Below are positions 1,243 through 34,593 of a stretch of 34,593 nucleotides of DNA, one piece after another. The notes under the pieces were generated by a model. The model did no database searches and was not told the origin of the DNA. It saw only the letters and a program-made list of their open reading frames with translations. The stretch's first letter is position 1, and every line of letters starts with the position of its first letter. The position numbers and the translations under genes are program-made. Source of the DNA: Octopus sinensis (lineage: Eukaryota); NCBI RefSeq assembly GCF_006345805.1, contig NW_021831681.1, positions 1 to 34,593 of the forward strand, read 5' to 3'.

Positions 1243-1484
1243 GGTTGAACGAAATACTTCCCACACTGAATATTAAAACAGTTTCCCAAGAATAAACAAA
1301 TAAAATTAAATAACAACATTAGTAAATAAATATATCATAATATATCCAGAAACAGGAATCATTTCACTTTACACGTGTCTCTCATTCATCAAAATATTTT
1401 GCTAATTATTGTGTGACAATATCAAACCATCTCTTTCCAATAATTAAACCTGTCAGACAAGTTCACACCCGCTTTTACAGTTCC

Positions 1485-1590
1485 ACCAATCGCATTGGTT
1501 CATAAATTTACGATAAGATCTATGCCAGAGCTGGGTTGTTGTGCGCTCAATAAATACGTGGAATTCAGTTACAGGTCTTCAGCTTAAACC
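1485..1590 (+). promoter_or_regulatory. Putative proximal promoter (also ~20138-20243 and ~34265-34370)
   Basis: Inverted CCAAT pair ACCAATcgcATTGGT (1485-1499), GATAAG at 1512, and a TATA-like AATAAATA at 1549-1556 about 30 nt before an Inr-like TCAGCT (1579-1584). Motif-based only. Confidence 0.35.
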
Positions 1591-1654
1591 TCGCATCTCG
1601 ATCTTTTGTTGAAGCCACACGAAGTATCACTTACGACCGACAACTGTCACCAGA

Positions 1655-1798
1655 ATGGATTTCGCACAACTGTCCAGGAATATTTCGCAGCGTTATTCCA
1701 TTTCTTCTCTCATAGCTTTTGGGGTTCTTCTCGTTCTGACGATCGTGATTCTTCATCAAGATTCAAGAATAGGAAAAATGGAAGAGAAATCGAAAACG
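1655..1798 (+). CDS. Gene copy 1, exon 1: N-terminal tail and hydrophobic signal-anchor of a short-chain collagen C4 (NC1)-like protein
   Basis: ATG at 1655 and 48 codons MDFAQLSRNISQRYSISSLIAFGVLLVLTIVILHQDSRIGKMEEKSKT, ending at a canonical ACG|GTAAGT donor (phase 0). Repeated near-identically at 20308 and 34435. Confidence 0.85.
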
Positions 1799-2209
1799 GT
1801 AAGTCATGGATTTTGTGTTAATATATGTATGTCTTTATGTATTTATATATGCATGTATGTATGTATGCATTTACGTATGTATGTATTAATATGTGGATGT
1901 ATGTACGTACCGATGGATAGATGGATGTAAGGATGTATGCATGAATCACTTACATATGTTCCTATGGAGCACACACACACACATAAGATCACACACGTAA
2001 TCACACACGAACACACAGGCGCACACACCTAAACATACATATATTTGTATATATAATATACATATATATGTATATATAAATATACATATATATGAATATA
2101 TTATTGCGTGAACATATATAGATATATATATACAAACAAATATATGCGTGTGTGTATCTATCACTGTATCACTCTGCCTATCTCTCTCTCTCTCTCTCTC
2201 TATTTATCA

Positions 2210-9792: not shown

Positions 9793-9844
9793 AACCGTTT
9801 CATCTCCAAGAAATCTCTCGACGATAAACCTGATGACACACCAA
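9793..9844 (+). CDS. Gene copy 1, exon 2 (52 nt, charged stalk NRFISKKSLDDKPDDTP)
   Basis: Acceptor tttctattttttcacAG and donor GTAAGA. Phase 0 in and phase 1 out exactly bridges exon 1 and exon 3. Identical in copy 2. Confidence 0.8.
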
Positions 9845-10099
9845 GTAAGAACTGATTTTATGGCTAAAGTCTTTTACCCGTGACTCATTAACTAATGGTT
9901 TATAATTTCACCAACTTTGAATTAGTTCCACATTATTATCCTTATGTCCACAATAATACATACTAAGACACTTGCCTGAATTTATTTCAAACTATATTGT
10001 ACTTTACAATAATTTCCTGAATAAAATGCTTTTATATACTATGCCATTTATTGTGTGTTTATGAGTATATATGCAGTGTTACGTCGATAATTGTACCAA

Positions 10100-11990
10100 G
10101 AACTCTTCATCTGAGAATCAAATGCCCGAGCTGGCGCTTCACTGCGTTTGTATCTACAATTCAGCATTCTGTCCACTCTTGTGCTTCCAATCGTTCGTGA
10201 ATAGAGACCCGAAATAATGATGTTCCACTTTCCGACACAGTGCGTATTTGTCAATCCTTCCTTGGGGTACTCGGCAGCCAACCAATTCAGTGCACGTTGT
10301 TGGTGACCATCAGACGAATCAGGTAGCAGCATGTCGTCTGCAAATAACAGTCGACCGATCACGTAGAGATGGATTGGGATACCTCTACCACAATGGCTGT
10401 GCATATTCAACCAGATCACAAAAAGAATGTGATAAGGGGCACTAACAATGCACACTTCAACAAAGAAACCTTCTCGTTGAAAAATTTCGACTTTTACATA
10501 AATACAATCATTTGAACATCCATATAAGTACTTTATGGCAACCATTAAAATCACCTTCCTGGTAAACCATCCGTAACATGCCCCAGGGCACGTGATCGTG
10601 TGCATTTTCGTGGTTTACAGCGAATAAATCTTGGAAATGCTTCAACGATTTCTTGAAGATCTGTCTTTGAACGACTATGTGGTCGGGTGTAGTGCGTCCT
10701 GGACAGTAATCTTGGGCGCGACAATTTCCCTAAATATCTTTTACTGTCATTAGTGTAGGCTTTTCTATAATTAGAACACGCTACTTGGTCTCTGTTTGAA
10801 AAATTGTGATTATCACACCATATTACCATTGCCTTGGTGTTTTTTGAAGAGGTCCCATCAACCTAGCGTACACGTGTCACTCAGAGAATACCATCTGTAT
10901 TCAAGGTTTATAAAATATCAAGCCGAACGTGCTTTTCACCAGCAGCTTTCACTTTAAGTGAGTTTAGCTCAAATAAGCGTTCAACCGAAGAAGAACCTGC
11001 CGAAAATATAATACAACCACGAATCCATTTCGATGTCCAACTTCATTCAGGCGGGTCACTCTCATTTGGATGCAAAAGTCTCCTTTTCGTTTCTGATTCC
11101 AGCATCCACTGCGGCTTCCAACTGTATTCTGTAGGTCGCACTAGACTTACCAATTTCCAGTGTTCGGCAGACCGTAGAAATTTTCAGGTTTTCAGATATG
11201 TAGGTAGTGCGAGTTGACAATTCCACCCCTCCTTTTACCCGAACGTTCAGCAAAGAGTGAAAGATGACCGAACACTATCAGAAACCTCTGTCACCAAGTA
11301 TTTCTATACCAGGCACCCTTATAAATATCCTGTCTTCAAATAATATCTATACCATAGAGAGGAGTGTGTATCCTGCACAGAAGCCTGCTAAGACCTCTCC
11401 ATTAAGTTCACTGACGACGTTCCTTCCAATCAATCCTTCTCACGGTTATCAGTGCCAAGGTGTGCACTGAAGTCTCCTTGCAGGACAAATGACTTTACCC
11501 CAAATATATCTAAAGCTGAGATGAATTTGCTTAGGAAGGATTTGTATTTGACCTAGCTGTTTGCTGCATATACTTTCAACAGCCACAGTGGTCTTTCATA
11601 TTCAGCCTTAGTTTCAAGAGGTGAACCCTCACACCTAGTAGGTTTCACTCCATTATACAATCCGAAAGCTGGGGATTGAGAGTATCCTAATCCCACCTGT
11701 GCAGACATTGTTGGCACCACAGTTGCGTAGTGGAGTTTTCAAGCCTATATCCAGGTGTACGCTATCGGAAAGGAAATTTTGTAGAGGAGACACCGATTAT
11801 ATCTTACAGGCAGATTATATCTAACAATTTTGACGTTTTAATTCTCAATTATTAAAGGTTGTTCCCTTCTTGATCTGCTTTCGTGTCCTGAGACCGTCAA
11901 TTTTGAGCTCCCACCCCACGCACGCCAGAGATTAATTTGCAGGCTTCTTGCTGGTTGCACCGGTATTGGGTGGGTTGTGCTATACATTTA
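10100..11990 (-). mobile_element. Decayed RTE-clade LINE (APE endonuclease and RT fragments)
   Basis: Minus-strand motifs LQGDFSAHLG (APE), CSNYR, HDHVPWGML (RT3-like) and LLFADDMLL...QRALNWLAAE (RT5), with many frameshifts. Confidence 0.78.
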
Positions 11991-12525: not shown

Positions 12526-12600
12526 AACCCGGTCTCGGATCATTGTATACCCGGTGGGGCAGAACAACTTGTCCTCCTTATTCAAAACTTGTATATGAAG
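12526..12600 (+). CDS. Gene copy 1, exon 3 (75 nt, KPGLGSLYTRWGRTTCPPYSKLVYEG), start of the C4/NC1-like domain
   Basis: Acceptor ttttaatttcacAG and donor GTTAGT, phase 1-1. The YTRWGRxxCP...LVYxG motif is typical of short-chain collagen C4-like domains. Confidence 0.88.
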
Positions 12601-13701: not shown

Positions 13702-13729
13702 CAAATAAAAACAAGATGCGAAGGATTCA

Positions 13730-13807
13730 GCGGTACATATTTTTCGGGCCTTTATTAGACAGATTTATAACAATGCATAATGTATGTCTGTGGCCTTCTT
13801 CAGCCGC
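13730..13807 (-). ncRNA. Degenerate hammerhead, inverted copy of 15664-15744
   Basis: GCGG-CUGAAGA-aGGCC...GGCCc-GAAAA-AUAU-GUA-CCGC. A C>A change breaks helix III. Confidence 0.6.
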
Positions 13808-15663
13808 GCACAACAACTTCCACAAGGGCATGTGTTACATCAATCAAAATTCTTGGTTGGGGATGCAAATCCTCCCATTCGCGTGCGACATAATGCGGCA
13901 GCAGCATAGAATTGAAGCGTCCATCTCTTTCTTCCCTCAATGTAGGATGAGGAAAAATGGATGTTGAAGTAATGTAAATAAATAAATACATGTATATACG
14001 TGAAGATGGAGGGGCGAGAATTCAGGACGAGGGATAAAAAATGTATAAAAAGTGTAAGTATAGAAAAATATAAAAATGTAGAGCATAAAGATATAAAGAG
14101 ATATAAGGAGATGTAAAGGGGGTATAAAGAATATAAAGAAATATAAAGAAATATAAATAAATGTAAAGGCATAAGGTTATAAAGTAAAAATAGAAATAGA
14201 AATAAAAATAAAAGTAAAAAAACATGATAAAAATGTAACAAAATATAAAAAAAAATAAAGATAAGGGATGTATAGAGGTTAAGGACCAAGCATGGTGGTC
14301 AGGAGATTGATAAAGTTTAGTTGTAGAATTGTCAGTAAATCAACAGTTTCGTCTGGGGACCTAATGCGTTGTAAATCAGAGCTGTTGAGCGTTTAATCTG
14401 GTTCCTTGAATTATTTGGACTTCTAGTACATACATACCAACATGGATACACACACCCATATACACGCGTACATATACGCCTCCAAGCCTATAAGCATACA
14501 CACGCACTCGCGTGTAAACATGCATATAAACACACACCACACCCACACGTACGTGCGTACACATACATACATACAACAGAATATCCGCATGTATACACGG
14601 ACACTATACATGTACACACTCACATGTACATACGCGCGCCCATCCCCACATACACACACGCATATGCCCACGCTTCCAGGTCTAGATATAAGATATTAAA
14701 GGATGTATATAAGGCGTATGTAAGGAATCACGTCTATGCGTGCACGCACACACGGCTGTGTGTACGTATGTGCGTGCACACATACACCTACACACACACA
14801 CAGAGACATAGGGGTATAGTTATAAGATATCAAAATATGCATGTACATATATGCGCGCGTTTATGTATGTATGCGTATACATACGTACAGAACGACGCTC
14901 GCATAGTCAAAAGTGGATCTATAGGTAGTAAATAAACACATATAGAGATGTAAAGCGATAAGTTAGGGGTAAGAATGAGGGTAAGGGTAAAAATTAGAAA
15001 TAAAAGTAAGAAATACAGTATAAAATAAGAAATACAATGTAATAGTTAGAAATGAAATATAAAATTAAAAAATTATAAGAGTTAAGGTAAGGGATGAAAA
15101 TGAAAATGAGAATAAATGGAAGTAGAATAAGAGTAAAAATAAATAAAATAAAATAAGATAAAAATATAATTTAACATGAGATGAAGGTGGTTGAAAGTTA
15201 GAGGTGTGTGTTAAAAGTGTCCACGTAGGGGCGGGCGGGGGGAACTGAAAATTGGAAGGGTGGGAAGTGGAGTTTGGCGGTGTGCGTTCAACATCCGAGT
15301 TAGAAATGTGAAAGGGTATAGATATAGGGAAGTAAAGAGACTATATAGGAAGGATATGGGTGTAGGAGAAGAAATTTAGGGAAAAGAAGTCATATATGGG
15401 AGACAAAATTTGTATATATAGGAGGAAAATGCAGGGAAACATATATGCACATACACACACCACACCACACAACACACGCACATATATATATATATATATA
15501 TGTACATATACGTACACATATGTGAACATACATATACATACAACACACATACGCATATACATATTCTATGCTGCTGCCGCATTATGTCGTACGCGAATGG
15601 GAGGATTTGCATCCCCAACCAAGAATTTTTGATGTAACACATGCCCTTGTGGAAGTTTGTTGT

Positions 15664-15744
15664 GCGCGGCTGAAGAAGCCACAGACATACATTATGCATT
15701 GTTATAAATCTGTCTAATAAAGGCCCGAAACATATGTACCGCGC
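15664..15744 (+). ncRNA. Type I hammerhead ribozyme, sense strand of copy 1 intron 3
   Basis: GCGCGG-CUGAAGA-aGCC...GGCcc-GAAAC-AUAU-GUA-CCGCGC. Helix I is 6 bp, ACAUAUGU palindrome, helix II base imperfect. Predicted cut after 15738. Confidence 0.75.
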
Positions 15745-15852
15745 TGAATCCTTCGCATCTTGTTTTTATTTTGATCAATTTACTCCACCACCTACACCAT
15801 CAAACGGTATACACAGGTGCTTATAATTATCAAGTACTCACCCCGAATTTCT

Positions 15853-16724: not shown

Positions 16725-17221
16725 GTGTTGTTGGTGGACAACATTATACCCATACTGGTGGCGGAAGTAATCTCTTGTGTTTACCTAACGATCCCATTTG
16801 GGCCAATTATACGACTGAAGTTGAAGAAGGTGGTTACATTTATGGCAGTGAATATGAAATATCCCACTACTCAAATAAACTCTTTTCTTTTGCAAACGCT
16901 GAATCAATTCATGATCACAACGTTCCGTGCGCTGTCTGTTTGACACGACAACCTGCTGTTTTTATGATGTTACCAGCCAGGACACAGTGTTACGCTGGTT
17001 GGACAGCTGAATATTCAGGATATTTGATGACCGAGGGTTCTGGTCATAAGGGCAGACTTGAATATGTGTGTGTGGATTATGCACCAGAAGCTGATCCAGC
17101 GGGTTACAGAAACGAAGATGGAGCTCTACTGTATTTCGTTCAGGCTGCTTGTGGTTCATTGCCATGTCCACCGTATGTCAATGGTCGAGAATTAACCTGC
17201 GTTGTGTGCAGTAAATACTGA
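16725..17221 (+). CDS. Gene copy 1, exon 4: bulk of the short-chain collagen C4 / collagen IV NC1-like domain, ending in TGA
   Basis: Acceptor ...ccaattctAG at 16723-16724. Open frame GVVGGQHYTHTGGGSNLLCLPNDP...VPCAVC...PARTQCYAGWTAEYSGYLM...YVCVD...CGSLPCPPY...LTCVVCSKY*. The spliced CDS is 768 nt (255 aa). Confidence 0.9.
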
Positions 17222-17350
17222 ATCGAATTTACATTCGTTTTTACATGAAACTTTATGTTGGCGAATCATAAAATATAATATAATAAAGCAACATATACGT
17301 TTCTTGTAATTGTGTTTCGCAGTATTTTATCCAACTAATATATGTCGTTA

Positions 17351-17356
17351 AATAAA
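17351..17356 (+). terminator. Polyadenylation signal of copy 1 (alternative AATAAA at 17282)
   Basis: AATAAA 130 nt after the stop, kept at the homologous position in copy 2 despite a diverged flank. Confidence 0.5.
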
Positions 17357-18867
17357 TTGCTGCTACAAGTTTTCAGAAAATATTCAAAACGAAACAACAG
17401 AGACGTCATAGAATGTGACAAATAGTTTGAGAGAACGATGTAATCCTAATCCTCAGAGAATGATTCTAGAATACATTGTATGAGGTTCAGTTTATCATTT
17501 AAATGTTGAAATAAAATGATGATTCGTTTAAATGTGTTGTATTCCGTCTTAAAATGAAAACAATCCCCAAATGAAACACCTCCGTACAAATATATCACCC
17601 TTTCATGATCAATCTTTAAAAAAACACGATAAAAGCTTATAACTAACATCACTAAATCATGATGGGTTAATAAAAAAAATACTCCCATACGTATCATTGT
17701 AACTACAATCGATGCGATGAAAGTTCTGCAATCCAATCGCGGATATTACCTAATAATGTTGACAACCTTACTACTTGTCAGGTTACTAACACATTGAAGT
17801 TTTCACGAAACACTTTCGACAAGGGTATAAGTACACGTCCCACGAAGAACTATTTTCAACCTACATTCACATATTCCACATCCAGCTTTTCTACAAATCA
17901 ACACACACACACCAGCCTCGCGTCACATTACACACGCAGCCTCTCATCGTTCCCTGAAAACTCATGTGCCAAAATAAAATGTGAAACCACCAAGAAATAA
18001 GAGTAGACTTCAAGAACGGCATCAACCGAATCTACAGCAACACCACAAAACATCGAGTTCAACAAATTATCGCGATCTGTAACATAAACTATCAAACTCG
18101 CAGAAGAGGAACTTGCTTCGAGATACATGCATACAATAACTGTAACACACATAAACGACTTAGTAAGGAAAGGAAGACGACTTATAAAATATACATTAGG
18201 TGGAATCAGTGCAACATGTTGAGTCTTTCACACTATACCCAGCATGATTGCTCCTTGTATGTGGGAGTTTGTAGAATGGCTGCCAGATAAACGAAGGTAT
18301 CCGTGGAAAGAGGGTTCTGTGGGTGGCAGCACGTTTTTTGTCCGATTCATTGCGTGCCATAAGAATGCTCGATTGTGAAAAAGCTAGAGAAAAAGAATAA
18401 TAATTAAGTAATATGAAAGCACGAAATGCAAATTGACAAATGAATATATGGAAACATTCAACATGGCGTTTCCAGTGAACAGTATTAGCGCTCAGTATTA
18501 GGCATAAGCAATTTTTAGGTTCGTTAAAATGTGCTAATGGCATATTTCAAACTCTAAACGCAAATTCTGTGCAAAAAGTTGCAAAAACAGCATATCAGTC
18601 CAGTGCTGCTCCCTATCGGGTTCCAGTTCAGCCGTTATCAAAAGAATACCGAAGAGGGGAATATCTGGACAAACTTAAAGCCATAGCTTTAACTAAAACA
18701 TAGTCAACAACAACGAGTAAGTGACGCCATTAGAGCGCCAGGCTGGAGTCTGTCGTGAGTTACCTCCCTTCGGTATTTCTCTCTGATAAATTCTTCGCTA
18801 GAGGAGTTGACTTCAAACTTGTGCCCCAACAGTAACTGCGGTCGCTCGTACGTGCCCGCATCTTTCC

Positions 18868-19890
18868 TTGTGTGTGTGGTGTGTGTGTGTGTGTGTGTTT
18901 TGTATGCGTGTGTTTGTATGTGTGTGTGTGTGTGTCAGTGTGTGTGTGTGGGTGGGTGTTTGTGTGTTTGCATGTATGTGTGTGTGTGTGTGTCAATGTG
19001 TGTATGTCAGTGTGTGTGTGAGTGTCAGTGTGTGTGTGTGTGTGTGTGTCAGTGTGTGTGTGTATCAGTGTGTGTGTATGTATCAGTGTGTGTGTGTGTG
19101 TATCAGTGTGTGTGTGTGGGTGTGTGGGTGTGTGGGTGTGTGTGTGTGTGTGTTTTCATGTGTGTGTGTGTGTAGGTGTGTGTGTCAGTGAGTGTGTGTA
19201 TGTCAATGTGTGTGTGAGTGTCAGTGTGTGTGTGTCAGTGTGTGTGTGTCACTGTATGTGTGTGTCAGTATGTTTGAGTGTGTGTGTCAGTGTGTGTGTG
19301 TCAGTGTGTGTGTGTCAGTGTGTGTGTGTATGTGTGTATGTCAGTGTGTGTGTGTGTTTGTCAGTGTGTGTGTGTATGTGTGTGTATCAGTGTGTGTGTG
19401 TGTGTGTGTGTCAGTGTGTGTGTGTTTATGTGTGTGTGTCAGTGTGTGTGTGTATGTCAGTGTGTGTGTGTGTGTGTGTCAGTGTGTGTATGTGTATGTG
19501 TGTGTCAGTGTGTGTGTGTATCAGTGTGCGTGTGTTGGTGTGGGTTTGTTTGCATGTGTGTGTCATTGTGTGTGTATGTCAGCGTGTGTGTGTGTGTTTG
19601 TGTGTCAGTGTGTGTGTGTGTGTGTGTCAGTGTGTGTGCGTCACTGTGTGTGTGTGTCAGTATGTGTGTATGTTAGTGTGTGTGTGTGTCAGTGTGTGTG
19701 TATGTGTATGTATGAAAGTGTGTTCGTGTGTATGTGTGTCGTTGTGTGTGTGTGTATGTCTATGTGTGTGTGTGTGTCAGTGTGTGTGTGTGTGTGTCAG
19801 TGTGCGCGAGTGTATGTGTGCCAGTGTCTCTGTGTCTGTGTTTCAGTGTGTGTTTGCGTGTCAGTGTGTGTTTAAGTGTGTGTCTGTCTA
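18868..19890. repeat. ~1 kb compound (TG)n/TCAG microsatellite upstream of copy 2
   Basis: Direct inspection. Confidence 0.92.
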
Positions 19891-20307
19891 TTTGTCGGTT
19901 GAACAAAATACTTCCCACACTGAATATTAAAACAGTTTCCCAAGAATAACAAATAAAATTAATTAAAAACATTAGTAAATAAATATATCATAATATATCC
20001 AGAAACAGGAATCAGTTCACTTTACACGTGTCTCTCATTCATCAAAATATTTTGCTAATTATTGTGTGACAATATCAAACCATCTCTTTCCAATAATTAA
20101 ACCTGTCAGACAAGTTCACACCCGCTTTTACAGTTCCACCAATCGCATTGGTTCATAAATTTACGATAAGATCTATGCCAGAGCTGGGTTGTTGTGCGCT
20201 CAATAAATACGTGGAATTCAGTTACAGGTCTTCAGCTTAAACCTCGCATCTCGATCTTTTGTTGAAGCCACACGAAGTATCACGTACGACCGACAACTGT
20301 CACCAGA

Positions 20308-20451
20308 ATGGATTTCGCACAACTGTCCAGGAATATTTCGCAGCGTTATTCCATTTCTTCTCTCATAGCTTTTGGGGTTCTTCTCGTTCTGACAATCGTG
20401 ATTCTTCATCAAGATTCAAGAATAGGAAAAATGGAAGAGAAATCGAAAACG
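20308..20451 (+). CDS. Gene copy 2, exon 1
   Basis: Same 48 aa as copy 1 with one silent change (ACG>ACA); GTAAGT donor at 20452. Confidence 0.83.
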
Positions 20452-20880
20452 GTAAGTCATGGATTTTGTGTTAATATATGTATGTCTTTATGTATTTATA
20501 TATGCATGTATGTATGTATGCATTTACGTATGTATGTATTAATATGTGGATGTATGTATGTACCGATGGATGGATGGATGTAAGGATGTATGCATGAATC
20601 ACGTACATATGTTCCTATGGAGCACACACACACACATAAGATCACACACGTAATCACACACGAACACACAGGCGCACACACCTAAATATACATATATATA
20701 CATATACGTATAATTGTATATATAATATACATATATATGTATATATAATATACATATATATGAATATATTAGTGCCTGAACATATATGGATATATATATA
20801 CAAACAAATACATGCGTGTGTGTATCTATCACTGTATCTCTCTGTCTATCCCTCTCTCTCTCTATTTATCTATATATATA

Positions 20881-20921
<41 letters not shown>

Positions 20922-21593
20922 TTTATATAAATATATTCTTTTAACCGTTTCAGTCATTTGACTGCGGCCATGCTAGGGCACTGCGTTCAGTAGAACAAAT
21001 CGACTTCAGGAATTATTCCTTGTAAGCTATTGCTCATTCTATCGGTATCTCTAGACGATCGGCTATGTAACGGGGACGTAAACACACCGACATCAGTTGA
21101 GAATCGATAGCGGTGCGACAATAACAGACACATACATAAAACATAGATACATACACACTATGTGTGGTATACACACACGCACACACACAAATCAATATAT
21201 ATATATATATACATATCATATATACATACACACATATATTACGTATGTATGTACATACATATCTATCTATCTATCTATATATCTATCTATGTATATCTAT
21301 CTATCTATCTATATATATATATATATATATAGGGATAAATAAAAATATGCATACATACAAACATATATGTACGTACCTACATCTACATGTATATATACAT
21401 GCATATATAAATAATTATACGGAAGTACAGGACATCACAATAGACGTAGAAACAGAAAAAGCCAAAAAACAAAAAACAAGAAAACGGAAAACGAAAACCA
21501 AATACAGGACAGGTTACACAAGGACAAAACCCCCGTCATCAGCTGTCGCTAGAGGAGTCAGGCATGTTTCGAAGGCATATAATATATATATAT

Positions 21594-21630
<37 letters not shown>

Positions 21631-22530
21631 GGATATATATATATCTGTCAGATATGATGTAATCGTATATTCTATTTCTATTTCCATGTCTTGTTATATT
21701 TGCAATATATTATGTATAATGTCATTGCTGTTATGTAATGGTTTATAAAGTATTGATTGGGTATTATCTGATGGTTGATGATTGATTTAGATATGTTTCT
21801 CCATTTTCTTTTTTGCATATATATATATATATCTATATACATACATATACACACATCCCAAGTAAACACAAAGAAGGGTGTAATTGTACTCCTGTCCGAT
21901 CGCTCTTTCACCAGACTTAATCCTGGAGAGGGAAATAAGTGCGTAACGGAAAAATTTAACGGTGGGGTTCTAGCATGGCCATGCCTGTCGCTGCAACGTT
22001 TAGCCCTATTAATATTAGTGTTAAGTATTATATCTAGATGTACACTTACACACACGCACACAGAAACTGACACATGCAAACACACACACACGCACACATA
22101 GGAATACGTACATATTTACACACATTTATCTATTTCTCTCCATCAGGAACGGAAGTGAGGCGAGTTTTTTGAATCTTTTCTTTCCAACTGAAAATAAAAC
22201 GTGCGAGTGCCAATGTAGATCGGTGAAATTCGTAATGTTTGACTGTAATTCACGTTGGTTTTTATATATGACAATATGTAAGAACGAATGTAAATACATA
22301 CACACAGACACACGGACAAACACACGCACAAATAAACACAAACACACACACATACGCACACACACAGACACACGTGCTCAATTGTACACGAACAACCACA
22401 CTATACAGTGTATGTCCACTCACATATATGTGTGCGTTTGTGTGTGTGTATGCGTATAAGTAGATACGTATATTTGTGATATTTATGGTGTGTATGCTTA
22501 AGTATACGTACATACCTATATATTGATATG

Positions 22531-22577
<47 letters not shown>

Positions 22578-22580
<3 letters not shown>

Positions 22581-22714
22581 GGGCTTCCTGATGATTTCAT
22601 TTGAATGAAACAGTTCTAGTCCTGTAGAAGCTCCTTCTATAAAATAAATTAATTTACTCTGCTATGTATTGAGTACCTTATTTACTGTGGTTAACCCCGA
22701 CTCAACCCGGGACC

Positions 22715-22717
<3 letters not shown>
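22578..22717 (+). mobile_element. 140-nt Penelope-like terminus inserted in (TA)n
   Basis: Consists essentially of the hammerhead plus an 80-nt tail. It occupies the TA tract that holds the MITE in unit 1. Confidence 0.55.
22579..22635 (+). ncRNA. Type I hammerhead ribozyme, sense strand of copy 2 intron 1
   Basis: AGGGGCUUC-CUGAUGA-uUUCauuuGAAu-GAAACAG-uucuaguc-CUGUA-GAAGCUCCU. Helix I is 9 bp, helix III 4 bp, GUA triplet (cut after 22626), weak helix II. Confidence 0.75.
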
Positions 22718-22796
<79 letters not shown>

Positions 22797-22807
22797 ATGT
22801 CTGTGTG

Positions 22808-23068
22808 GAGGCGCAGTGGCCCAAGGGTTAGGGCAGCGGTCTCATGGTTGCCGGATCGCGGTTTCGATTCCCAGACTGGGCGTTGTGAGTGTTTAATGCT
22901 GCACGAAGCTCAGTGAGTTGGGTTGTTGTGATCACTCTTTCTTCTGTTGGCCCGCTCGCTTAGCCAGCAGGGTGGCGTCATTTTAAGGCTAAAACAACGC
23001 GAAGCGCATTGTGACCAGCGATATGTAGCAACAACTGATAGCCTACTCTGTGACGGTGATCACGGAGA
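22808..23068 (+). mobile_element. tRNA-derived SINE (paralogue of 4809-5081)
   Basis: A box TGGCCCAAGGG and B box GGTTTCGATTCCC; shared body ...gcgaagcgcattgtgaccagcgat... Confidence 0.78.
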
Positions 23069-23074
23069 TATATG

Positions 23075-24195
23075 CATCATATGCACACAATACACACACA
23101 CACATACATACACACGTACATACACACACACCAGCACAGATGCCCACATATACCTTTAACGAACAATACTCATACAGATACGCACACACTTATACACACA
23201 CACGCACATACACGTACTTTAGCGCACACACGCACACAAGCACACGCACGCACATTACGCCCACACAACTTCAAAAAAAACCCTACACACACGCATGCAT
23301 ATATATGTATACACACAAACGCACAGTTACTCACCACACAAACTCTACGCATACACACACATACACACCGATACATATACATACACGCAATATATGCCTA
23401 CACGCGCACACACACACATACACATCCGTATACACATATAGACACAGACACACACACACGCACGCAAAAACATGCGCACACACACACACACACGAATGCA
23501 CACACCGAAAACTCACATCCACGGATACAGGTATATACACCTATATACGCTTACTCACACACATACAAACGCACGTGTACGCGCACACACAGCTACATGA
23601 ACATGTGAGACGCATGCACATACATACATACACATAAATGAACCCACACATACATCCCATACACACGGCACACAAATATACAAACACGCACACAATTATA
23701 CATACATGTATACACACAAACGCACAGTTATTCGCCACACACCCAAACTCTACGCATACACACACACACAAACACACATGTGTCATCATTGCACACATAC
23801 ACACACGCACACATACAGAAAGTAAAGCATAGTTATTCGCCAAACACCCTAACTCTACGCCTACACACACGAACACACACATACATACACACACACTACA
23901 AACAAAACACACACACGATACATATACATACACGCACACACACACATACTTCACACTAGCGGTACCTACTACTTGACCTGGGGTAGAGACAAAAGGAGCC
24001 ACGCCCAATTCCTTCTCCCTTGATCTTAACACTACTAACCCTACAACACGCAAAGTTTAACAGCCACAACCACACACACATACACACACACATGCACACA
24101 CACACACACACGTGTCATCATTGCACACATACGCACATACACACACACGGACATGCAGACCTACGATCACGCTCTTATCCATACTTACACACACA
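23075..24195. repeat. Degenerate (CA)n-rich low-complexity region (paralogue ~5155-5870)
   Basis: Direct inspection. Confidence 0.8.
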
Positions 24196-24323
24196 TTCCT
24201 CATCCTCTACCACTCTCCTGTCTTTGAAAGAACTTTTCTTCCCCAATTTTCTTCCGGTCATTCAAAATGTGACGGCGTGTGTACCGTTGGCGATTTTTTT
24301 TCCTCTGTCTTCCCTCCTCGTAT

Positions 24324-24358
24324 GTTTCCGACGAAGAGCTCTGCTCGAAACGTTAAAC
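24324..24358 (+). ncRNA. Degenerate ultra-minimal hammerhead (paralogous copy at 6017-6051)
   Basis: GUUU-CCGACGA-aGAGC-ucu-GCUC-GAAACGUU-AAAC. The copy-1 version keeps CUGACGA but has GUAA, so the consensus of the two is an intact core. Confidence 0.55.
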
Positions 24359-24512
24359 CCTCCTCCTTCCCTTCTTTCCTAAGCGTCAAATATTACTATA
24401 TTTGTTCCACGTCCTCGCATTGTTGTGTTTTTTAGTGCTTTCTTGTTTAGATTAAATTTAACTATATATATACATGTGTGAGTGTATATATATATATATA
24501 TGTGTAGAAATA

Positions 24513-24545
<33 letters not shown>

Positions 24546-24568
24546 ATGTGTGCGTGTGTGTGTGTGTA

Positions 24569-25190
24569 CTTGAAGACATACCCGGTATTGCTGGGGATTC
24601 AAATGGCAAAGATGGTATATAATATATTCCAGTCATTTTGAAACAGGTGATATGGGAAAGTGCAACATTGACAACAAAACATTTGTTGAGTAAATGCTGG
24701 GCTAACTCGACTAAGCAACATGCTATGCGTCCGTTTGGAGTGTTTCAGGCCCTAACCTGTCATGCAAAATTGGAGGTGGGGTTTGTGTGATTTTTGAACG
24801 CACCGAAATGCTGTCAGTGGATATACTCTCCTTTGCAGCAGTGTGCGCTGTGTCTAACACGGCCCATCATCGGAAATTTTGACACTTCACGTCGGGTTTG
24901 TTGTCCTACATCACTCATAGAGTAAATTTGGAGGAACTGTGGTTGTTCATTTGTGTGTGTGCGCGTGTAGGCATATATTGCCCTTGAACTTTGACGTGGG
25001 CGTAAATTCATGTTTATCTATCTTCTTAGATTCACCAAACGATGTCATTTGAAATGCAGAGTTGTATTGTCTGATATTGTTCAAGAAGTCGTTTGACTGA
25101 ATTGAAGCGCCTTCTAGAAGATTCCTAAGGGGTTGACATGGTTGTGTTGGCAATGATACCTGTCCGAATATGTTGTTATCTATTGCATTG
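24569..25190 (-). mobile_element. Helitron remnant (paralogue)
   Basis: ORF pieces PLRNLL...FLNNIRQYNSAFQMTSFG and NEQPQFLQIY; terminal CTAG decayed. Confidence 0.8.
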
Positions 25191-25260
25191 TTTTAAGTTC
25201 GAAACGATAATAAATATCCTGAAGTTCTATTTATATGATGCTATTTCTATTTTTTCAAAG

Positions 25261-25312
25261 AACCGTTTCATCTCCAAGAAATCTCTCGACGATAAACCTG
25301 ATGACACACCAA
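25261..25312 (+). CDS. Gene copy 2, exon 2
   Basis: Identical to 9793-9844; acceptor ttttttcaaAG, donor GTAAGA. Confidence 0.78.
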
Positions 25313-25569
25313 GTAAGAACTAATTTTATGGCTAAAGTCTTTTACCCGTGACTCATTAACTAATGATTTATAATTTCACCAACTTTGAATTAGTTCCACA
25401 TTACTATCCATATGTCCACAAAATATATACTAAGACACTTGCCTGAATTTATTTAAAACTATGTTCTACTTTACAATAATTTCCTAAATAAAATGTTATT
25501 CTTATATACTTATATGCCTTTTATTGTGTGTATATGAGTATACATGCAGTGCTACGTCGATAATTGTAC

Positions 25570-26680
25570 CAAGCCCATAAATACAATCATTTGAACATCC
25601 ATATAAGTATTTTATGGCAACCAGTATATACCCATTAAACTCACCCTCCTGGTAAACCATCCGCAACATGCCCCAGGGCACGTGATCTTGAGCCTTTCCG
25701 TGGTTTACAGCGTATAAACCTTGGAAATAATTCAATGTTGGCTGGAAGATCAGTCTTGAACGAATCTCTGGTCGGGTGTACTTCGTCCAAGACGGTAATC
25801 TTGGGCGCGACAATTTCCCTACATATCTATTCCTGACATTTAGTGTAGATTTTCTATAATTAGAATACACTCTTTGGTCTCAATTTGAAAAGATTATGAT
25901 TGTCACCCCATATTACCATTGCCTTGGTGTTTTTTCCAGAGGTCTCATCCACCTAGCATACATGGGTCACTCAGAGAATACCATCTGTATTTAAAGTTTC
26001 GAAAATATCAAGCCGAACGTGCTTTTCACCAGCAGCTTTATCACTTTTAAGTGAGTTTAGCTCAAATAAGCCTTCAAACGAAGAAGAACCTGCCGAAAAA
26101 CATAATACAATCACGAATCCATTTCGAGGTCCAACTTCATTCAGGCGGGTCACTCTCAATTTGGATGCAAATGTCTCCACATTTTCGTTTCTGATTCCAG
26201 CATCCACTGCGGCTTCCAACTGTATTCTGTAGGTCGCACTAGACTTACCAATTTCCAGTGTTCTGCAGACTGTAGGAATTTTCAGGTTTTTAGACATTTA
26301 GGTAGTGACGAGTTGACAACTCCACCCTTCCTTTTACCCGAACGTTCAGCAAAGAGTGAAAGATGACCGAAATCTATCAGAAACCTCTGTCACCAAGTAT
26401 TTCTAAATCAGGCACCCTTATAAATATCCCTGTCTTAAAAGAATATCTATACCATAGAGAGGAGAAGTGTGTATCCTGCAATGAAGGCTGCTATGACCTC
26501 TCCATTAAGTTCACTGACGACATTCCTTCCAATCAATCCTTCTCACGGTTATCAGTGCCAAGGTGTGCACTGAAGTCTCCTTGCAGGACAAATGACTTTA
26601 CCCCAAATATATCTAAAGCTGAGGTGAATTTGCTTAGGAAGGATTTGTATTTGACATCGCTGTTTGCTGCATATACTTAC
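25570..26680 (-). mobile_element. Decayed RTE-clade LINE (paralogue, internally deleted)
   Basis: Colinear with 10500-11575; motifs YSNYR, KAQDHVPWGML and GDFSAHLG. Confidence 0.75.
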
Positions 26681-26944
26681 AGAACGCTAAGGGCTCGAAG
26701 AAATAGCCATACCGCGTCATCCATCGAGTGGGATAAAAGCAGTTGCCCCCGGATCTTGATTGGAGGAGACGATTCGGGAATATATTGCAGTCTCCACCCA
26801 ACTCAATCTGAGATGAATGGGGACGGAATACAAAATATGCGTCTTCCAAACACCGAAGCAGGTCCAGATGGGATCAACCGTTCATAATTGAGAATTAGAC
26901 TGTCAAAACCGGACGATACAAAGCGCTATGAATGAAGGAGTGGT

Positions 26945-27190
26945 GTAGCTGTTGGAAGTAAATGCACCCAATAGCGAGGGCAAATACAAATGCTTCCTTA
27001 ACAAAGTCACTGCAGCTTTGGATATATTTGGGGTAAAGTCATTTGTCTTACAAGGAGACTTCCGTGCACACTTTGACGCTGATAACCGCAAGAAGTATTG
27101 ATTGGGTGGAATCGCCCCACACACATAATTGGGGTGGCCATACTAGTCTTCTGGAAGGAAACGGACTCTCTTCGCGCCAAACACCAAGCT
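26945..27190 (+). mobile_element. RTE-like endonuclease fragment in the opposite orientation
   Basis: Plus strand reads LLEVNAPNSEGKYKCFLNKVTAALDIFGVKSFVLQGDFRAHF; an inverted relative of 26521-26678. Confidence 0.72.
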
Positions 27191-27304
27191 GATATTCGTA
27201 AATGGCAAATCAGGTGCCAAGAATTGATAATATTGCCAACATATCTATAAAAGAAGGACTTAATCATTTTTATTGTCACAAATATATATAAATGTATATA
27301 TATA

Positions 27305-27351
<47 letters not shown>

Positions 27352-27353
<2 letters not shown>

Positions 27354-27773
27354 CGCAGGAGTGGCTGTGTGGTAAGTAGCTGCTGCTACCAACCACATGG
27401 TTCCGGGTTCAGTCCCACTGCGTGGCACCTTGGGCAAGTGTCTTCTACTATAGCCCCGGGCCGACCAATGCCTTGTGAGTGGATTTGGTAGACGGAAACT
27501 GAAAGAAGCATGTCGTATTATATGTATATATATATATGTATATGTGTGTGTGTTTGTGTGTCTGTGTTTGTCCCCCTAGCATTGCTTGACAACTGATGCT
27601 GGTGTGTTTTACGTCCCCGTCACTTAGCGGTTCGGCAAAAGAGACCGATAGAATAAGTACTGGGCTTACAAAGAATAAGTCCCGGGGTCGATTTGCTCGA
27701 CTAAAGGCGGTGCTCCAGCATGGCCGCAGTCAAATGACTGAAACAAATAAAAGAGTAAAAGAAAAAAGAGTAA

Positions 27774-27775
<2 letters not shown>
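27352..27775 (+). mobile_element. Full-length Octopus-type tRNA-derived SINE with CORE-like domain and internal microsatellite
   Basis: A box TGGCTGTGTGG, B box GGTTCAGTCCC, CORE-like GTGGCACCTTGGGCAAGTGTCTT, 3' GGCGGTGCTCCAGCATGGCCGCAGTC...TGAAAC and a purine tail. Flanked by (TA)n. Confidence 0.88.
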
Positions 27776-27809
<34 letters not shown>

Positions 27810-28138
27810 TCACATCCAAGTTCAACTACAAAACAAACATCCGTTTTTAAGGGAGACAAATACACATTCTGATATTCTGAGATTAATCTCTCAATTCGTT
27901 GACATCAACGTCAACAACAGGCTCAATAGACAAATGACTAATTTTCTTCGTTTAAAATTTATTCTTAGCGAATCATTTACTTCTTTCATTCTGATTTTCA
28001 TTCATTCACTCATTCTTTCTCTCTTAAATTCTAAATGTATCTCCTCTCTATCAATTCCTTCCAAGCCAACAACTTCCTTTGTATAGGATTCAAGAATTCT
28101 TTATTTTAAACTAAATTATTTCATTTTAAATTTCACAG

Positions 28139-28213
28139 AACCCGGTCTCGGATCATTGTATACCCGGTGGGGCAGAACAAGTTGTCCTCCTTATTCAAAC
28201 CTTGTATATGACG
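28139..28213 (+). CDS. Gene copy 2, exon 3 (KPGLGSLYTRWGRTSCPPYSNLVYDG)
   Basis: tttcacAG acceptor, GTTAGT donor, 75 nt, 3 aa changes versus copy 1. Confidence 0.85.
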
Positions 28214-29577
28214 GTTAGTATAAACTATACTTCTGTTCACTCTTTCTCTCTTTATCTTTCTCTTCTTCTCTTTTTATTCCTCTCATTTTCTCTTTCTGTC
28301 GCCCCCTCTCTTTCCGTTTCTCACACACGGACACGCACGCACGCACACTCAAGCAAATCATGTGATATATCACGTTTCAAACGATACCTATAGACCCTGT
28401 TGAGACTGCACAAGACTGCTTACTTCTTTGTAGGTATTTGGTCAAATCAGAATTTAAATGTTGTCTACTTCGGTTCGGACAGGTGAAAATGATGTTGTCT
28501 AACCTCAGAATATAGATATCTCTACGATAATTATAGATAGGACTAGACTGGAATCCAGTACAGCGATCAAGGACTCCTGGCTGACTTGTATGGAGTGTAG
28601 ATATCAAATACCGAGGCTGCTAACTGGTGATCAAGTGTACTGGATACGGATGGTGGTATTATACGTGAGTGACCAGAACTGAAAAGTGGCCACTTGACTA
28701 TCATTAACTAGAGTGTCTATTGATTGTAGTTATAGACTACAATCAATTGATGAACGAATGTATAGGGTTAATCAAATGAACGCAGAATGTACAATGTGGA
28801 CTGGACAACCCATACACTGTAACTAATGGACAAAGCTAACTAAGGGCCGTATGTATTATGCCAAATATGGAGGGACCAAGTACCACTGAGGGAACCCAGT
28901 GAGTACATATTGCACTTCTAATCTTCTCCGCCTTACCGATATCGCCCTATTCCTCAAACCTCTCTCTTTCATGCACCACCTCCCCTCATTAATTGTCCAG
29001 TATATCTTTGTAAGGTATCGCCGGCACATCCAATTCAAAGCTATTGCTTCCCACATCTTCTCCAACCAATCTCGCATCCTTTGTGAATCTGCTCTCTATA
29101 AACCCTACACATATCGTTTATCGGTCGCCCACTCCGCTGTCCATTCTTCTTAGCACTACGCACCATCAATGAGCTTCAAAATTCACTCCACCTCAGTTCA
29201 TGCTTTGCATGAAATAAAATCTCTGTGATCATAATATTATAGTATGTGGTATTACCGTCTCGTGGTAGGCCTGACTCGTCCCAGACAAACCGATGGATAT
29301 AGCCAGACACACACCGTATGGTCGGCTAAACAGTATTTCATCCCCTCTTACCCACCAGTTCTCTGCATGTCACCGTCTCTCGTATTGTTCTACTCTCAAA
29401 CCACATGCAATTCCCATCACCAACAATTTTCCCGTTCAAACGGGAACGACATCTTTTCATTTCGGGAAATCACGACCACATGCGTTACAATATCCCTTTC
29501 CTTTCTCCGTTTATTGACATCCACACACGAACATGTACCCCCTGCAATACACATCACAACCACGATTACTTAACCGT

Positions 29578-29610
<33 letters not shown>

Positions 29611-29834
29611 TATATATATAAAGAGAAGAGAACGCACAGCTGCGAACACATGCGCACTCCCATCCAGCAACACACAGCTTACACTTACATAAACACTAAC
29701 ACATACACCACAATTCGTTCACACGTGACTAAACATGGCTCCTTTTAAGGGTCAAACTGTAATGAATGTTTCCGTTATTTCATATATAATTTTGCCTATA
29801 TCTTTTTTACTTGATTTATTCTTACTAATTCAAG

Positions 29835-30333
29835 GTGGGCTGGTGGACAAAATTTTGACAAGACAGGTGGCGGAAATAATCTCTTATGCCTACCCAACGA
29901 CCCCATTTGGGCCAATTATACTGCAAAAGGGGAAAATGCGGGTTGGATTTATGGCAGTGAATATCAACTACAGTCATACGACACCAATACTATTTTTTCT
30001 TTTGCTAACGCTAAATCACTTCATGATCACAACGTTCCGTGCGCTGTCTGTTTGACACGACAACCTGCTGTTGTTATGATGTTACCAGGCAGGAATGAGT
30101 GTTACGCTGGTTGGACAGCTGAGTATTCAGGATATTTGATGTCCAGTAATCACGAAGAAAAGGGCAGACTAGAATATGTGTGTGTGGACTATGCACCAGA
30201 AGCTGATCCAGCAGGTTACAGAGACGAAAATGGAGCTGTTTTATATTTCGTTCAGGCTGCTTGTGGTTCATTGCCATGTCCACCGTTTGTCAATGGTCAC
30301 GAATTAACCTGCGTTGTGTGCAGTAAATATTGA
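29835..30333 (+). CDS. Gene copy 2, exon 4 (C4/NC1-like domain). One base short at the acceptor: a frameshifted allele/pseudogene or a sequence error
   Basis: The homologous frame is open from 29836 (WAGGQNFDKTGGGNNLLCLP...CVVCSKY*) and keeps all cysteines. Splicing at the AG at 29833-29834 enters a shifted frame that stops at 30055. Confidence 0.75.
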
Positions 30334-34022: not shown

Positions 34023-34434
34023 GGTTGAACGAAATACTTCCCACACTGAATATTAAAACAGTTTCCCAAGAATAAACAAATAAAATTAAATAACAACATT
34101 AGTAAATAAATATATCATAATATATCCAGAAACAGGAATCATTTCACTTTACACGTGTCTCTCATTCATCAAAATATTTTCCTAATTATTGTGTGACAAT
34201 ATCAAACCATCTCTTTCCAATAATTAAACCTCTCAGACAAGTTCACGCCCACTTTTACAGTTCCACCAATCGCATTGGTTCATAAATTTACGATAAGATC
34301 TATGCCAGAGCTGGGTTGTTGTGCGCTCAATAAATACGTGGAATTCAGTTACAGGTCTTCAGATTAAACCTCGCATCTCGATCTTTTGTTGAAGCCACAC
34401 GAAGTATCACGTACGACCGACAACTGTCACCAGA

Positions 34435-34578
34435 ATGGATTTCGCACAACTGTCCAGGAATATTTCGCAGCGTTATTCCATTTCTTCTCTCATAGCTTTT
34501 GGGGTTCTTCTCGTTCTGACGATCGTGATTCTTCATCAAGATTCAAGAATAGGAAAAATGGAAGAGAAGTCGAAAACG
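34435..34578 (+). CDS. Gene copy 3, exon 1 (gene continues beyond the window)
   Basis: Same 48 aa with one silent AAA>AAG change; GTAAGT donor at 34579. Confidence 0.83.
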
Positions 34579-34593
34579 GTAAGTCATGGATTT

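What the first reader, a model, noticed from the sequence alone, without database searches (positions are those of the whole stretch)
16725..30333. Four hypervariable segments on an invariant scaffold in exon 4
Manual alignment gives about 38 differences in ~166 aa between copies 1 and 2. Most fall in four patches: HYTH/NFDK, TEVEEGGY/AKGENAGW, EISHY-SNKL/QLQSYDTNTI (1-codon indel) and TEGSGH/SSNHEE. All cysteines are kept, and long stretches (e.g. CATGATCACAACGTTCCG...CCTGCTGTT) are identical even at silent sites. The first and fourth patches occupy the equivalent position of the two subrepeats. Inference: diversifying selection on surface loops forming a binding face (CDR-like), or on oligomer chain-selection loops.
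Basis: partly seen in the sequence, partly recalled or inferred. Interest (0 to 1): 0.75.

Follow-up and report, generated by a model that had tools for sequence, protein, structure and literature searches.

The report
Octopus shuffled-loop collagen-head gene array
An octopus carries at least 115 side-by-side copies of a gene whose predicted membrane anchor is nearly identical in all copies while four loops of its collagen-IV-like head are swapped between copies into almost as many combinations as genes, likely a repertoire of binding proteins whose targets are untested.

Summary
Observation confirmed: 38 differences in 165 columns, 24 in the four patches, all 9 cysteines kept. The two exons belong to an octopus array of at least 115 genes in 2.9 Mb. 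Each encodes a collagen-less 'short-chain collagen C4-like' protein: a predicted type II anchor (exon 1 identical in 83 of 150 scored places) and an NC1-like head. Across 104 genes the patches form 96 combinations, and the exon is a gene-conversion mosaic. Diversifying selection is only partly supported. Silent diversity also rises in the patches, so pooled dN/dS is about 1. The proposed single-tree M8/M7 test (LRT 283) is unreliable, because neutral simulations with recombination gave false positives in comparable tree-based tests. A tree-free test still flags 8 codons, 5 of them in patches, against 0-3 in 21 neutral and 9-13 in 5 selection simulations. Whether the loops share one face was not tested. 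Elsewhere the same head occurs in threes behind MACPF domains and in a giant choanoflagellate protein, which favours a trimeric binding module. Copy 2 is frameshifted in this assembly. The scan noted similar arrays in oyster and mussel before; the mussel one lacked recent conversion.

The parts
1655..1798 (+). Gene 1 exon 1: short N-terminal tail, hydrophobic segment (residues 15-33, predicted type II anchor), start of helical neck
   Evidence: identical over 48 aa in 83 of 150 scored places
9793..9844 (+). Gene 1 exon 2: stalk with a dibasic motif (possible shedding site, inferred)
   Evidence: canonical AG/GT, in frame
12526..12600 (+). Gene 1 exon 3: first strand and first cysteine of the head
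16725..17221 (+). Gene 1 exon 4: rest of the NC1-like head; the spliced gene gives an intact 255-aa protein
16742..16753 (+). Patch 1 (columns 6-9), hairpin tip of sub-repeat 1; codons 6 and 8 flagged
16814..16837 (+). Patch 2 (columns 30-37), loop; codon 34 flagged by every site-level method
16856..16882 (+). Patch 3 (columns 44-53), long loop with indels; codon 46 flagged, pooled omega below 1
17030..17047 (+). Patch 4 (columns 103-108), hairpin tip of sub-repeat 2; codon 107 flagged
20308..20451 (+). Gene 2 exon 1 (same protein sequence as gene 1)
25261..25312 (+). Gene 2 exon 2 (AAG acceptor)
28139..28213 (+). Gene 2 exon 3
29835..30333 (+). Gene 2 exon 4, with a 1-nt deletion just after the acceptor (frameshift: pseudogene or assembly error); patches at 29851-29862, 29923-29946, 29965-29994, 30142-30159
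34435..34578 (+). Exon 1 of a third gene of the array

Best explanation
The exons belong to a tandem array of at least 115 octopus genes for predicted membrane-anchored, likely trimeric proteins with a collagen-IV-NC1-like head, in which gene conversion keeps the anchor and head scaffold nearly uniform and shuffles four loop patches, and selection likely favours new residues at some 5-10 loop codons, as expected for a repertoire of binding proteins. Shown: the array, the constant exon 1, the mosaic exon 4, the combinatorial patches, and the rise of silent diversity near the patches. Predicted: the anchor, the fold and the loop positions. Inferred: the trimer, selection against homogenisation of the loops, and the binding of diverse outside ligands (most likely microbial or parasite surfaces) on epithelia or after shedding into mucus.
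For: Array: 150 of 282 candidates scored, all at 73-100% identity; 112 full-length exon copies on C18, 106 of them intact. Exon 1 is identical in 83 of 150 places, while patches give 96 combinations in 104 genes. Mosaicism: local trees cut parsimony steps by 30%, against 3-5% in 8 no-recombination simulations; 12 of 26 patch differences in 14 recent duplicate pairs have both strings elsewhere in the array. Fourfold-site diversity is 0.21-0.25 within 2 codons of a patch and 0.07 beyond 10 codons, the divergence-peak pattern described in PMC3924837 (passages). Tree-free test: 8 codons with P>0.9, against 0-3 in 21 neutral simulations and 9-13 in 5 simulations with omega 3-4 at 10 codons. 7 columns have at least 11 amino acids, against 0-3 in 20 of 21 neutral runs. 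At codons 91, 105, 142 and 153 the first two bases vary while the third mostly stays T. Fold: only NC1 chains scored Z>=2 among 48,161 (6mpx Z 6.9, rmsd 5.5, 155 aligned). The head occurs in 3 tandem copies behind MACPF in 3 proteins, and in 6 and 9 copies in two giant TNFR-repeat proteins, one from a choanoflagellate. One contig of a probable RNA run carries exon-3-like letters joined to exon 4 of a paralogue. Two family peptides occur in an octopus ink proteome (PMC10142993 supplement).
Against: Pooled patch dN/dS is about 1. Patch diversity at positions 1+2 (0.34) is no higher than that of the wider intron and 3' flanks (0.30-0.33, alignment quality uncertain). Tree-based tests are not decisive: neutral forward simulations gave local-tree LRTs of 12-54 against 30-47 observed. 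3 of the 8 tree-free codons (91, 142, 153) lie outside the patches, and the site lists differ between methods. The same columns vary in 87 more distant homologues (Spearman 0.56), so they are tolerant loops anyway. One neutral run reached 8 columns with at least 11 amino acids, though at about seven times the observed scaffold silent diversity. No simulation, neutral or selected, reproduced all statistics, and the models are simple. No ligand, tissue or immune-induction data. The ink evidence is weak: the rows seen show one spectrum each, in one of three samples.
Confidence: 0.5

Rival explanations
1. Dosage array with tolerant loops: many copies supply a bulk surface or mucus protein; conversion homogenises the constrained scaffold, and the loops drift neutrally and convert less because they mismatch.
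For: Pooled omega about 1; patch diversity matches distant flanks; the loops vary family-wide; tree tests fail calibration; promoter-proximal DNA and exon 1 are nearly uniform, which fits co-expression.
Against: None of 21 neutral runs combined a scaffold silent diversity near 0.07 with patch diversity near 0.34, and none gave more than 3 flagged codons. Codons 46 and 107 hold 23 and 20 different codons, above the flank maximum of 16-18.
Confidence: 0.3
2. Cell-identity or self-recognition code: heads meet face to face, as collagen IV NC1 trimers do, and the patches set which paralogues bind each other across cells.
For: Constant anchor with a variable head; NC1-like fold; NC1 trimers pair end to end (PMC6527180, passages); a very large combinatorial set.
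Against: Fast patch turnover: 4 of 24 O. bimaculoides patch strings occur in this array, against 28 of 36 for O. vulgaris, which fits an arms race better (inference). The alignment to the NC1 interface residues was too weak to map.
Confidence: 0.12
3. Chain-selection loops: the patches decide which paralogues co-trimerise.
For: NC1 domains select chains in collagen IV (established knowledge); there are over 100 paralogues with identical necks.
Against: Nearly free recombination of patches would break fixed partner codes. There is no collagen helix to register. Spongins are reported to lack the domain-swapping region (PMC5395295, figure legend passage).
Confidence: 0.08

Closest known systems
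[quoted passage not shown] 2006, not read; described in PMC5395295)
   Same: Same NC1-type head: array members carry this name; two sub-repeats; no HSQ motif.
   Different: No Gly-X-Y collagen stretch in the 255-aa protein; a predicted uncleaved anchor and helical neck; at least 115 tandem copies with shuffled loops.
Collagen IV NC1 domain
   Same: Best and only fold match (Foldseek E 7e-5; VIA Z 6.9 to the single-chain trimer 6mpx).
   Different: 12-19% identity; PF01413 not matched; low TM-scores to single chains; shorter; no HSQ or RND motif.
Conversion-diversified recognition gene families (MHC, plant R genes, self-incompatibility genes; PMC3924837 passages)
   Same: Tandem paralogues, mosaic genes, divergence peaks at a few sites, pseudogenes within the cluster.
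   Different: Unrelated fold; no ligand known; weaker evidence of positive selection.
Type II trimeric surface proteins with neck and head (TNF/EDA, group II and V C-type lectins; recalled)
   Same: Order of parts: short tail, anchor, helical neck, dibasic stalk, C-terminal head.
   Different: The head is NC1-like, not a TNF or C-type lectin domain; trimer and shedding untested.

Membership tests
Spongin short-chain collagens | NC1-type domain of two sub-repeats with conserved cysteines | tested here: met
Spongin short-chain collagens | Short Gly-X-Y collagenous domain before the NC1 | tested here: not met
   The spliced 255-aa protein has none; other homologues do carry PF01391
Spongin short-chain collagens | No HSQ motif | tested here: met
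   sequence; feature taken from PMC5395295
Spongin short-chain collagens | Secreted through a cleaved signal peptide | tested here: inconclusive
   19-residue hydrophobic segment at residues 15-33 (mean KD 2.67) within a helix to residue 57; an anchor is more likely; no signal predictor was run
Collagen IV NC1 | HSQ motifs and chloride-binding R-x-D loop | tested here: not met
   Absent by inspection; present in the genome's own collagen IV exons
Collagen IV NC1 | Trimer and hexamer assembly | not tested
   Indirect only: 3, 6 or 9 tandem copies in other proteins; the match to 6mpx spans chain residues 7-675
Diversified recognition gene families | Large tandem cluster reshuffled by gene conversion | tested here: met
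Diversified recognition gene families | dN/dS above 1 at the variable sites | tested here: inconclusive
   Pooled about 1; 8 codons flagged tree-free, above neutral simulations; tree tests fail calibration
Diversified recognition gene families | Variable sites form a ligand-binding face | not testable with these tools
   No model coordinates were available; only loop positions
Diversified recognition gene families | Variant-specific ligand binding, or expression in defence tissue | not testable with these tools
   No binding or tissue data

The most novel reading that the evidence does not exclude
Octopus has a germline variable-receptor system built on the collagen IV NC1 fold: over 100 genes with a constant membrane anchor, whose four loop cassettes are shuffled by gene conversion and diversified by selection into trimeric binding faces that recognise microbes, parasites or self. 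The same head would serve as an ancient targeting module in MACPF proteins and choanoflagellate receptors.
Probability: 0.3. Interest if true: 0.85.

Novelty: new variant of a known kind. Interest (0 to 1): 0.6.

Why it matters
Cephalopods have no known antibody-like receptors (recalled), and these genes sit in databases under a structural 'collagen' name. An array with a constant anchor and a variable head gives a concrete candidate for diversified recognition in octopus. It also makes the function of the spongin-type NC1 head testable with natural loop-swap variants. It is a clean example, too, of standard single-tree selection tests misleading on a converting gene family.

Tried and rejected
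Pfam and PDB sequence searches gave nothing useful. The full-length model's wide fold search was filled by the N-terminal helix, so the head was refolded alone. Profile alignment to the genome's collagen IV exons was too weak (probability 20 or less) to map the patches onto NC1 interface residues; a hand alignment was not used as evidence. Single-tree M2a/M8 results (LRT 291 and 283, 11 sites) were rejected as proof: null data recombined over six segments gave LRT 18-64 in 7 of 7 runs of a single-tree mixture test, against 62 observed. The local-tree result (LRT 44 against 0-2) was also set aside after fine-scale conversion gave 12-54. Codon 88 looks like conversion toggling among four codons. 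Four simulations with selection only against conversion flagged 0-2 codons. The PHI-like test was only p=0.02, with incompatibility near 65% at all distances. The regional fits and three local fits failed to optimise and were redone. One search used a shifted frame and was redone. No RNA holder is on record, so tissue and level are unknown. The copy 2 deletion is unresolved: the second contig carrying it is a 99.8-100% duplicate of the window, and the one run contig spanning the site has the base but 3 other differences. Literature: searches for 'short-chain collagen' with octopus or cephalopod, 'short-chain collagen C4' with expansion or mollusc/immune, 'octopus sinensis' with tandem, gene cluster and collagen, and octopus with spongin and tandem listed no description of this array. 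The library lacks most subscription papers, and supplements were seen for one paper only.
Full report
OBSERVATION. They differ at 38 of 165 columns, 24 of them in the four patches, and keep all nine cysteines. Copy 2 lacks one base just after its acceptor, so in this assembly it is frameshifted; its 99% paralogue on C18 has the base. The window is a 99.8-100% duplicate of the end of contig C11086, so the deletion has no independent support.

THE GENE. Gene 1 has four exons with canonical junctions and gives an intact 255-aa protein. It has a 14-residue tail, a 19-residue hydrophobic segment inside a long predicted helix (folded on paralogue P0014), a short stalk with a dibasic motif, and a 184-residue head. 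There is no Gly-X-Y stretch. Database relatives are named 'short-chain collagen C4-like' from Octopus species, with distant ones in annelids, cnidarians, bivalves and amphioxus. The head, folded on paralogue P0016 (pLDDT 91.9), matches only collagen IV NC1: Foldseek E 7e-5 but TM below 0.3, and VIA Z 6.9, rmsd 5.5, 155 aligned to the single-chain trimer 6mpx, with 2 of 48,161 chains at Z>=2. Its halves are homologous. Patch 1 pairs with patch 4, and the variable columns 129-135, 140-142 and 153-155 of the second half pair roughly with patch 2, the start of patch 3 and columns 63-64. All patches lie in predicted loops or at hairpin tips and ends.

THE ARRAY. The genome search scored 150 of 282 candidates. 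With, I fetched 154 loci, which gave 145 full-length exon hits and 16 partial ones. I dropped the partial hits, one repeated locus, 14 broken or frameshifted copies, all unplaced contigs except window copy 1, and 3 identical sequences, which left 104. C18 holds 112 full-length and at least 3 partial copies between 3.67 and 6.53 Mb, in blocks of alternating strand; 106 of the 112 are intact in exon 4. This is a lower bound, though some copies could be assembly duplicates. Exon 1 is identical over 48 residues in 83 of 150 scored places; nucleotide diversity was 0.6% in 30 of these, chosen for protein identity. In contrast, the patches take 46, 54, 61 and 61 forms and 96 combinations in 104 genes. 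O. vulgaris proteins have counterparts at 96-99% in 8 of 9 parsed cases (the ninth score was spoiled by an indel) and share 28 of 36 patch strings; O. bimaculoides shares 4 of 24. Six of 21 proteins could not be parsed.

CONVERSION. Six local trees need 30% fewer steps than one tree, against 3-5% in 8 simulations without recombination. In 14 independent recent duplicate pairs (flanks 1.5% apart, chosen below 3%), patches differ at 7.7% and the scaffold at 2.3%; in 12 of 26 patch differences both strings occur elsewhere in the array. Fourfold-site diversity falls from 0.21-0.25 beside the patches to 0.07 beyond ten codons, while near flanks are 0.21-0.23 and wider flanks 0.30-0.33.

SELECTION. 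My own codon code gave M8 over M7 an LRT of 283, with omega 2.9 at about 8% of sites; 10 of 11 flagged sites are in patches. That test assumes one tree and one silent rate, and both fail here. With the patches' own silent rate, pooled omega is 0.88, 1.04, 1.0 and 1.09 by four approaches; patch 2 gives 1.55-2.7 and patch 3 0.4-0.8. Calibration showed false positives for single-tree and for local-tree tests. A tree-free allele-frequency model (my approximation of a GenomegaMap-type method, recalled) flagged codons 6, 8, 34, 46, 91, 107, 142 and 153. Neutral simulations with homology-dependent conversion flagged 0-3 in 21 runs, and runs with ten codons at omega 3-4 flagged 9-13, one of them with pooled omega 1.0 as in the data. 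Each setting was run once, and none matched every statistic. I put site-level positive selection at about 65% and patch-wide positive selection as not supported. The same columns also vary in 87 more distant homologues. There, an aromatic-x-His pattern is common at both hairpin tips (columns 7/9 and 106/108), alternating with the hypervariable positions, which resembles a conserved site with a variable rim (inference).

MECHANISM. The profile search found 4,592 proteins at E<=0.001. Of 28 scanned, three are MACPF proteins, five carry collagen repeats, and others carry TNFR repeats, SH2, sushi or discoidin domains. Of 7 mapped, the three MACPF proteins each end in exactly three heads, two giant proteins have six and nine (one from the choanoflagellate Choanoeca perplexa), and the other two have one head, or two full and two partial heads. 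Multiples of three suggest single-chain trimers, and the place behind MACPF is where perforin-family proteins carry their targeting domain (recalled). I infer a trimeric binding head on a constant anchor, diversified by mutation at a few loop codons and reshuffled by conversion. The ligand is unknown. Expression evidence is thin: one exon 3-exon 4 junction in one run contig of a paralogue, and two family peptides in an ink proteome.

PAPERS SEEN. PMC5395295, PMC6527180, PMC3924837, PMC6626399 and PMC13093298: passages only. PMC10142993: passages and supplement rows. Aouacheria 2006: citation only. All others: search listings. None of the searches listed a description of this array; papers and supplements outside the library may hold one.

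VERDICT. It is related to spongin short-chain collagens but fails the collagen criterion. It evolves like a conversion-driven recognition family, with moderate evidence for selection at a few codons and no test of the binding face. New variant of a known kind; interest 0.6.

Noticed in passing
P0128, P0137, P0138: Unnamed proteins with a MACPF domain followed by exactly three copies of this NC1-like head; possibly an undescribed targeting domain for perforin-like proteins.
   Followed up: partly
P0121, P0122: Proteins of about 3,900 aa with nine and six N-terminal heads and TNFR cysteine repeats; one has SH2 domains, and the other is from the choanoflagellate Choanoeca perplexa.
   Followed up: partly
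G000:C18 3.65-6.05 Mb: The array lies in large blocks of alternating orientation, with three pairs of identical exon 4 copies 0.2-0.4 Mb apart: recent segmental duplication or assembly duplication.
   Followed up: no
window 1346-1820, 19999-20473, 34126-34593: The promoter-proximal region and exon 1 are 98-99% identical among the three genes, while the introns are 75-94% alike.
   Followed up: partly
window 10048-10614 (-): A 188-aa stop-to-stop frame with an FADD motif, suggestive of a decayed LINE reverse transcriptase; no Pfam hit.
   Followed up: partly
window 13703-13912 / 15563-15771 and 26522-26681 / 26953-27112: Inverted repeat pairs (96% and 84% identical) in introns, possibly transposon ends.
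   Followed up: no
G000:C18 about 5.43-5.89 Mb (L112, L119-L121, L124-L126, L129, L130): A divergent subfamily with an N-E-T glycosylation sequon at patch 1.
   Followed up: no
window against C11086 and C18: The window duplicates C11086:37223-71831; most of its gene 1 region best matches C18 4.12-4.13 Mb and most of its gene 2 region C18 3.90-3.92 Mb, as an unequal crossover or another haplotype would give.
   Followed up: partly
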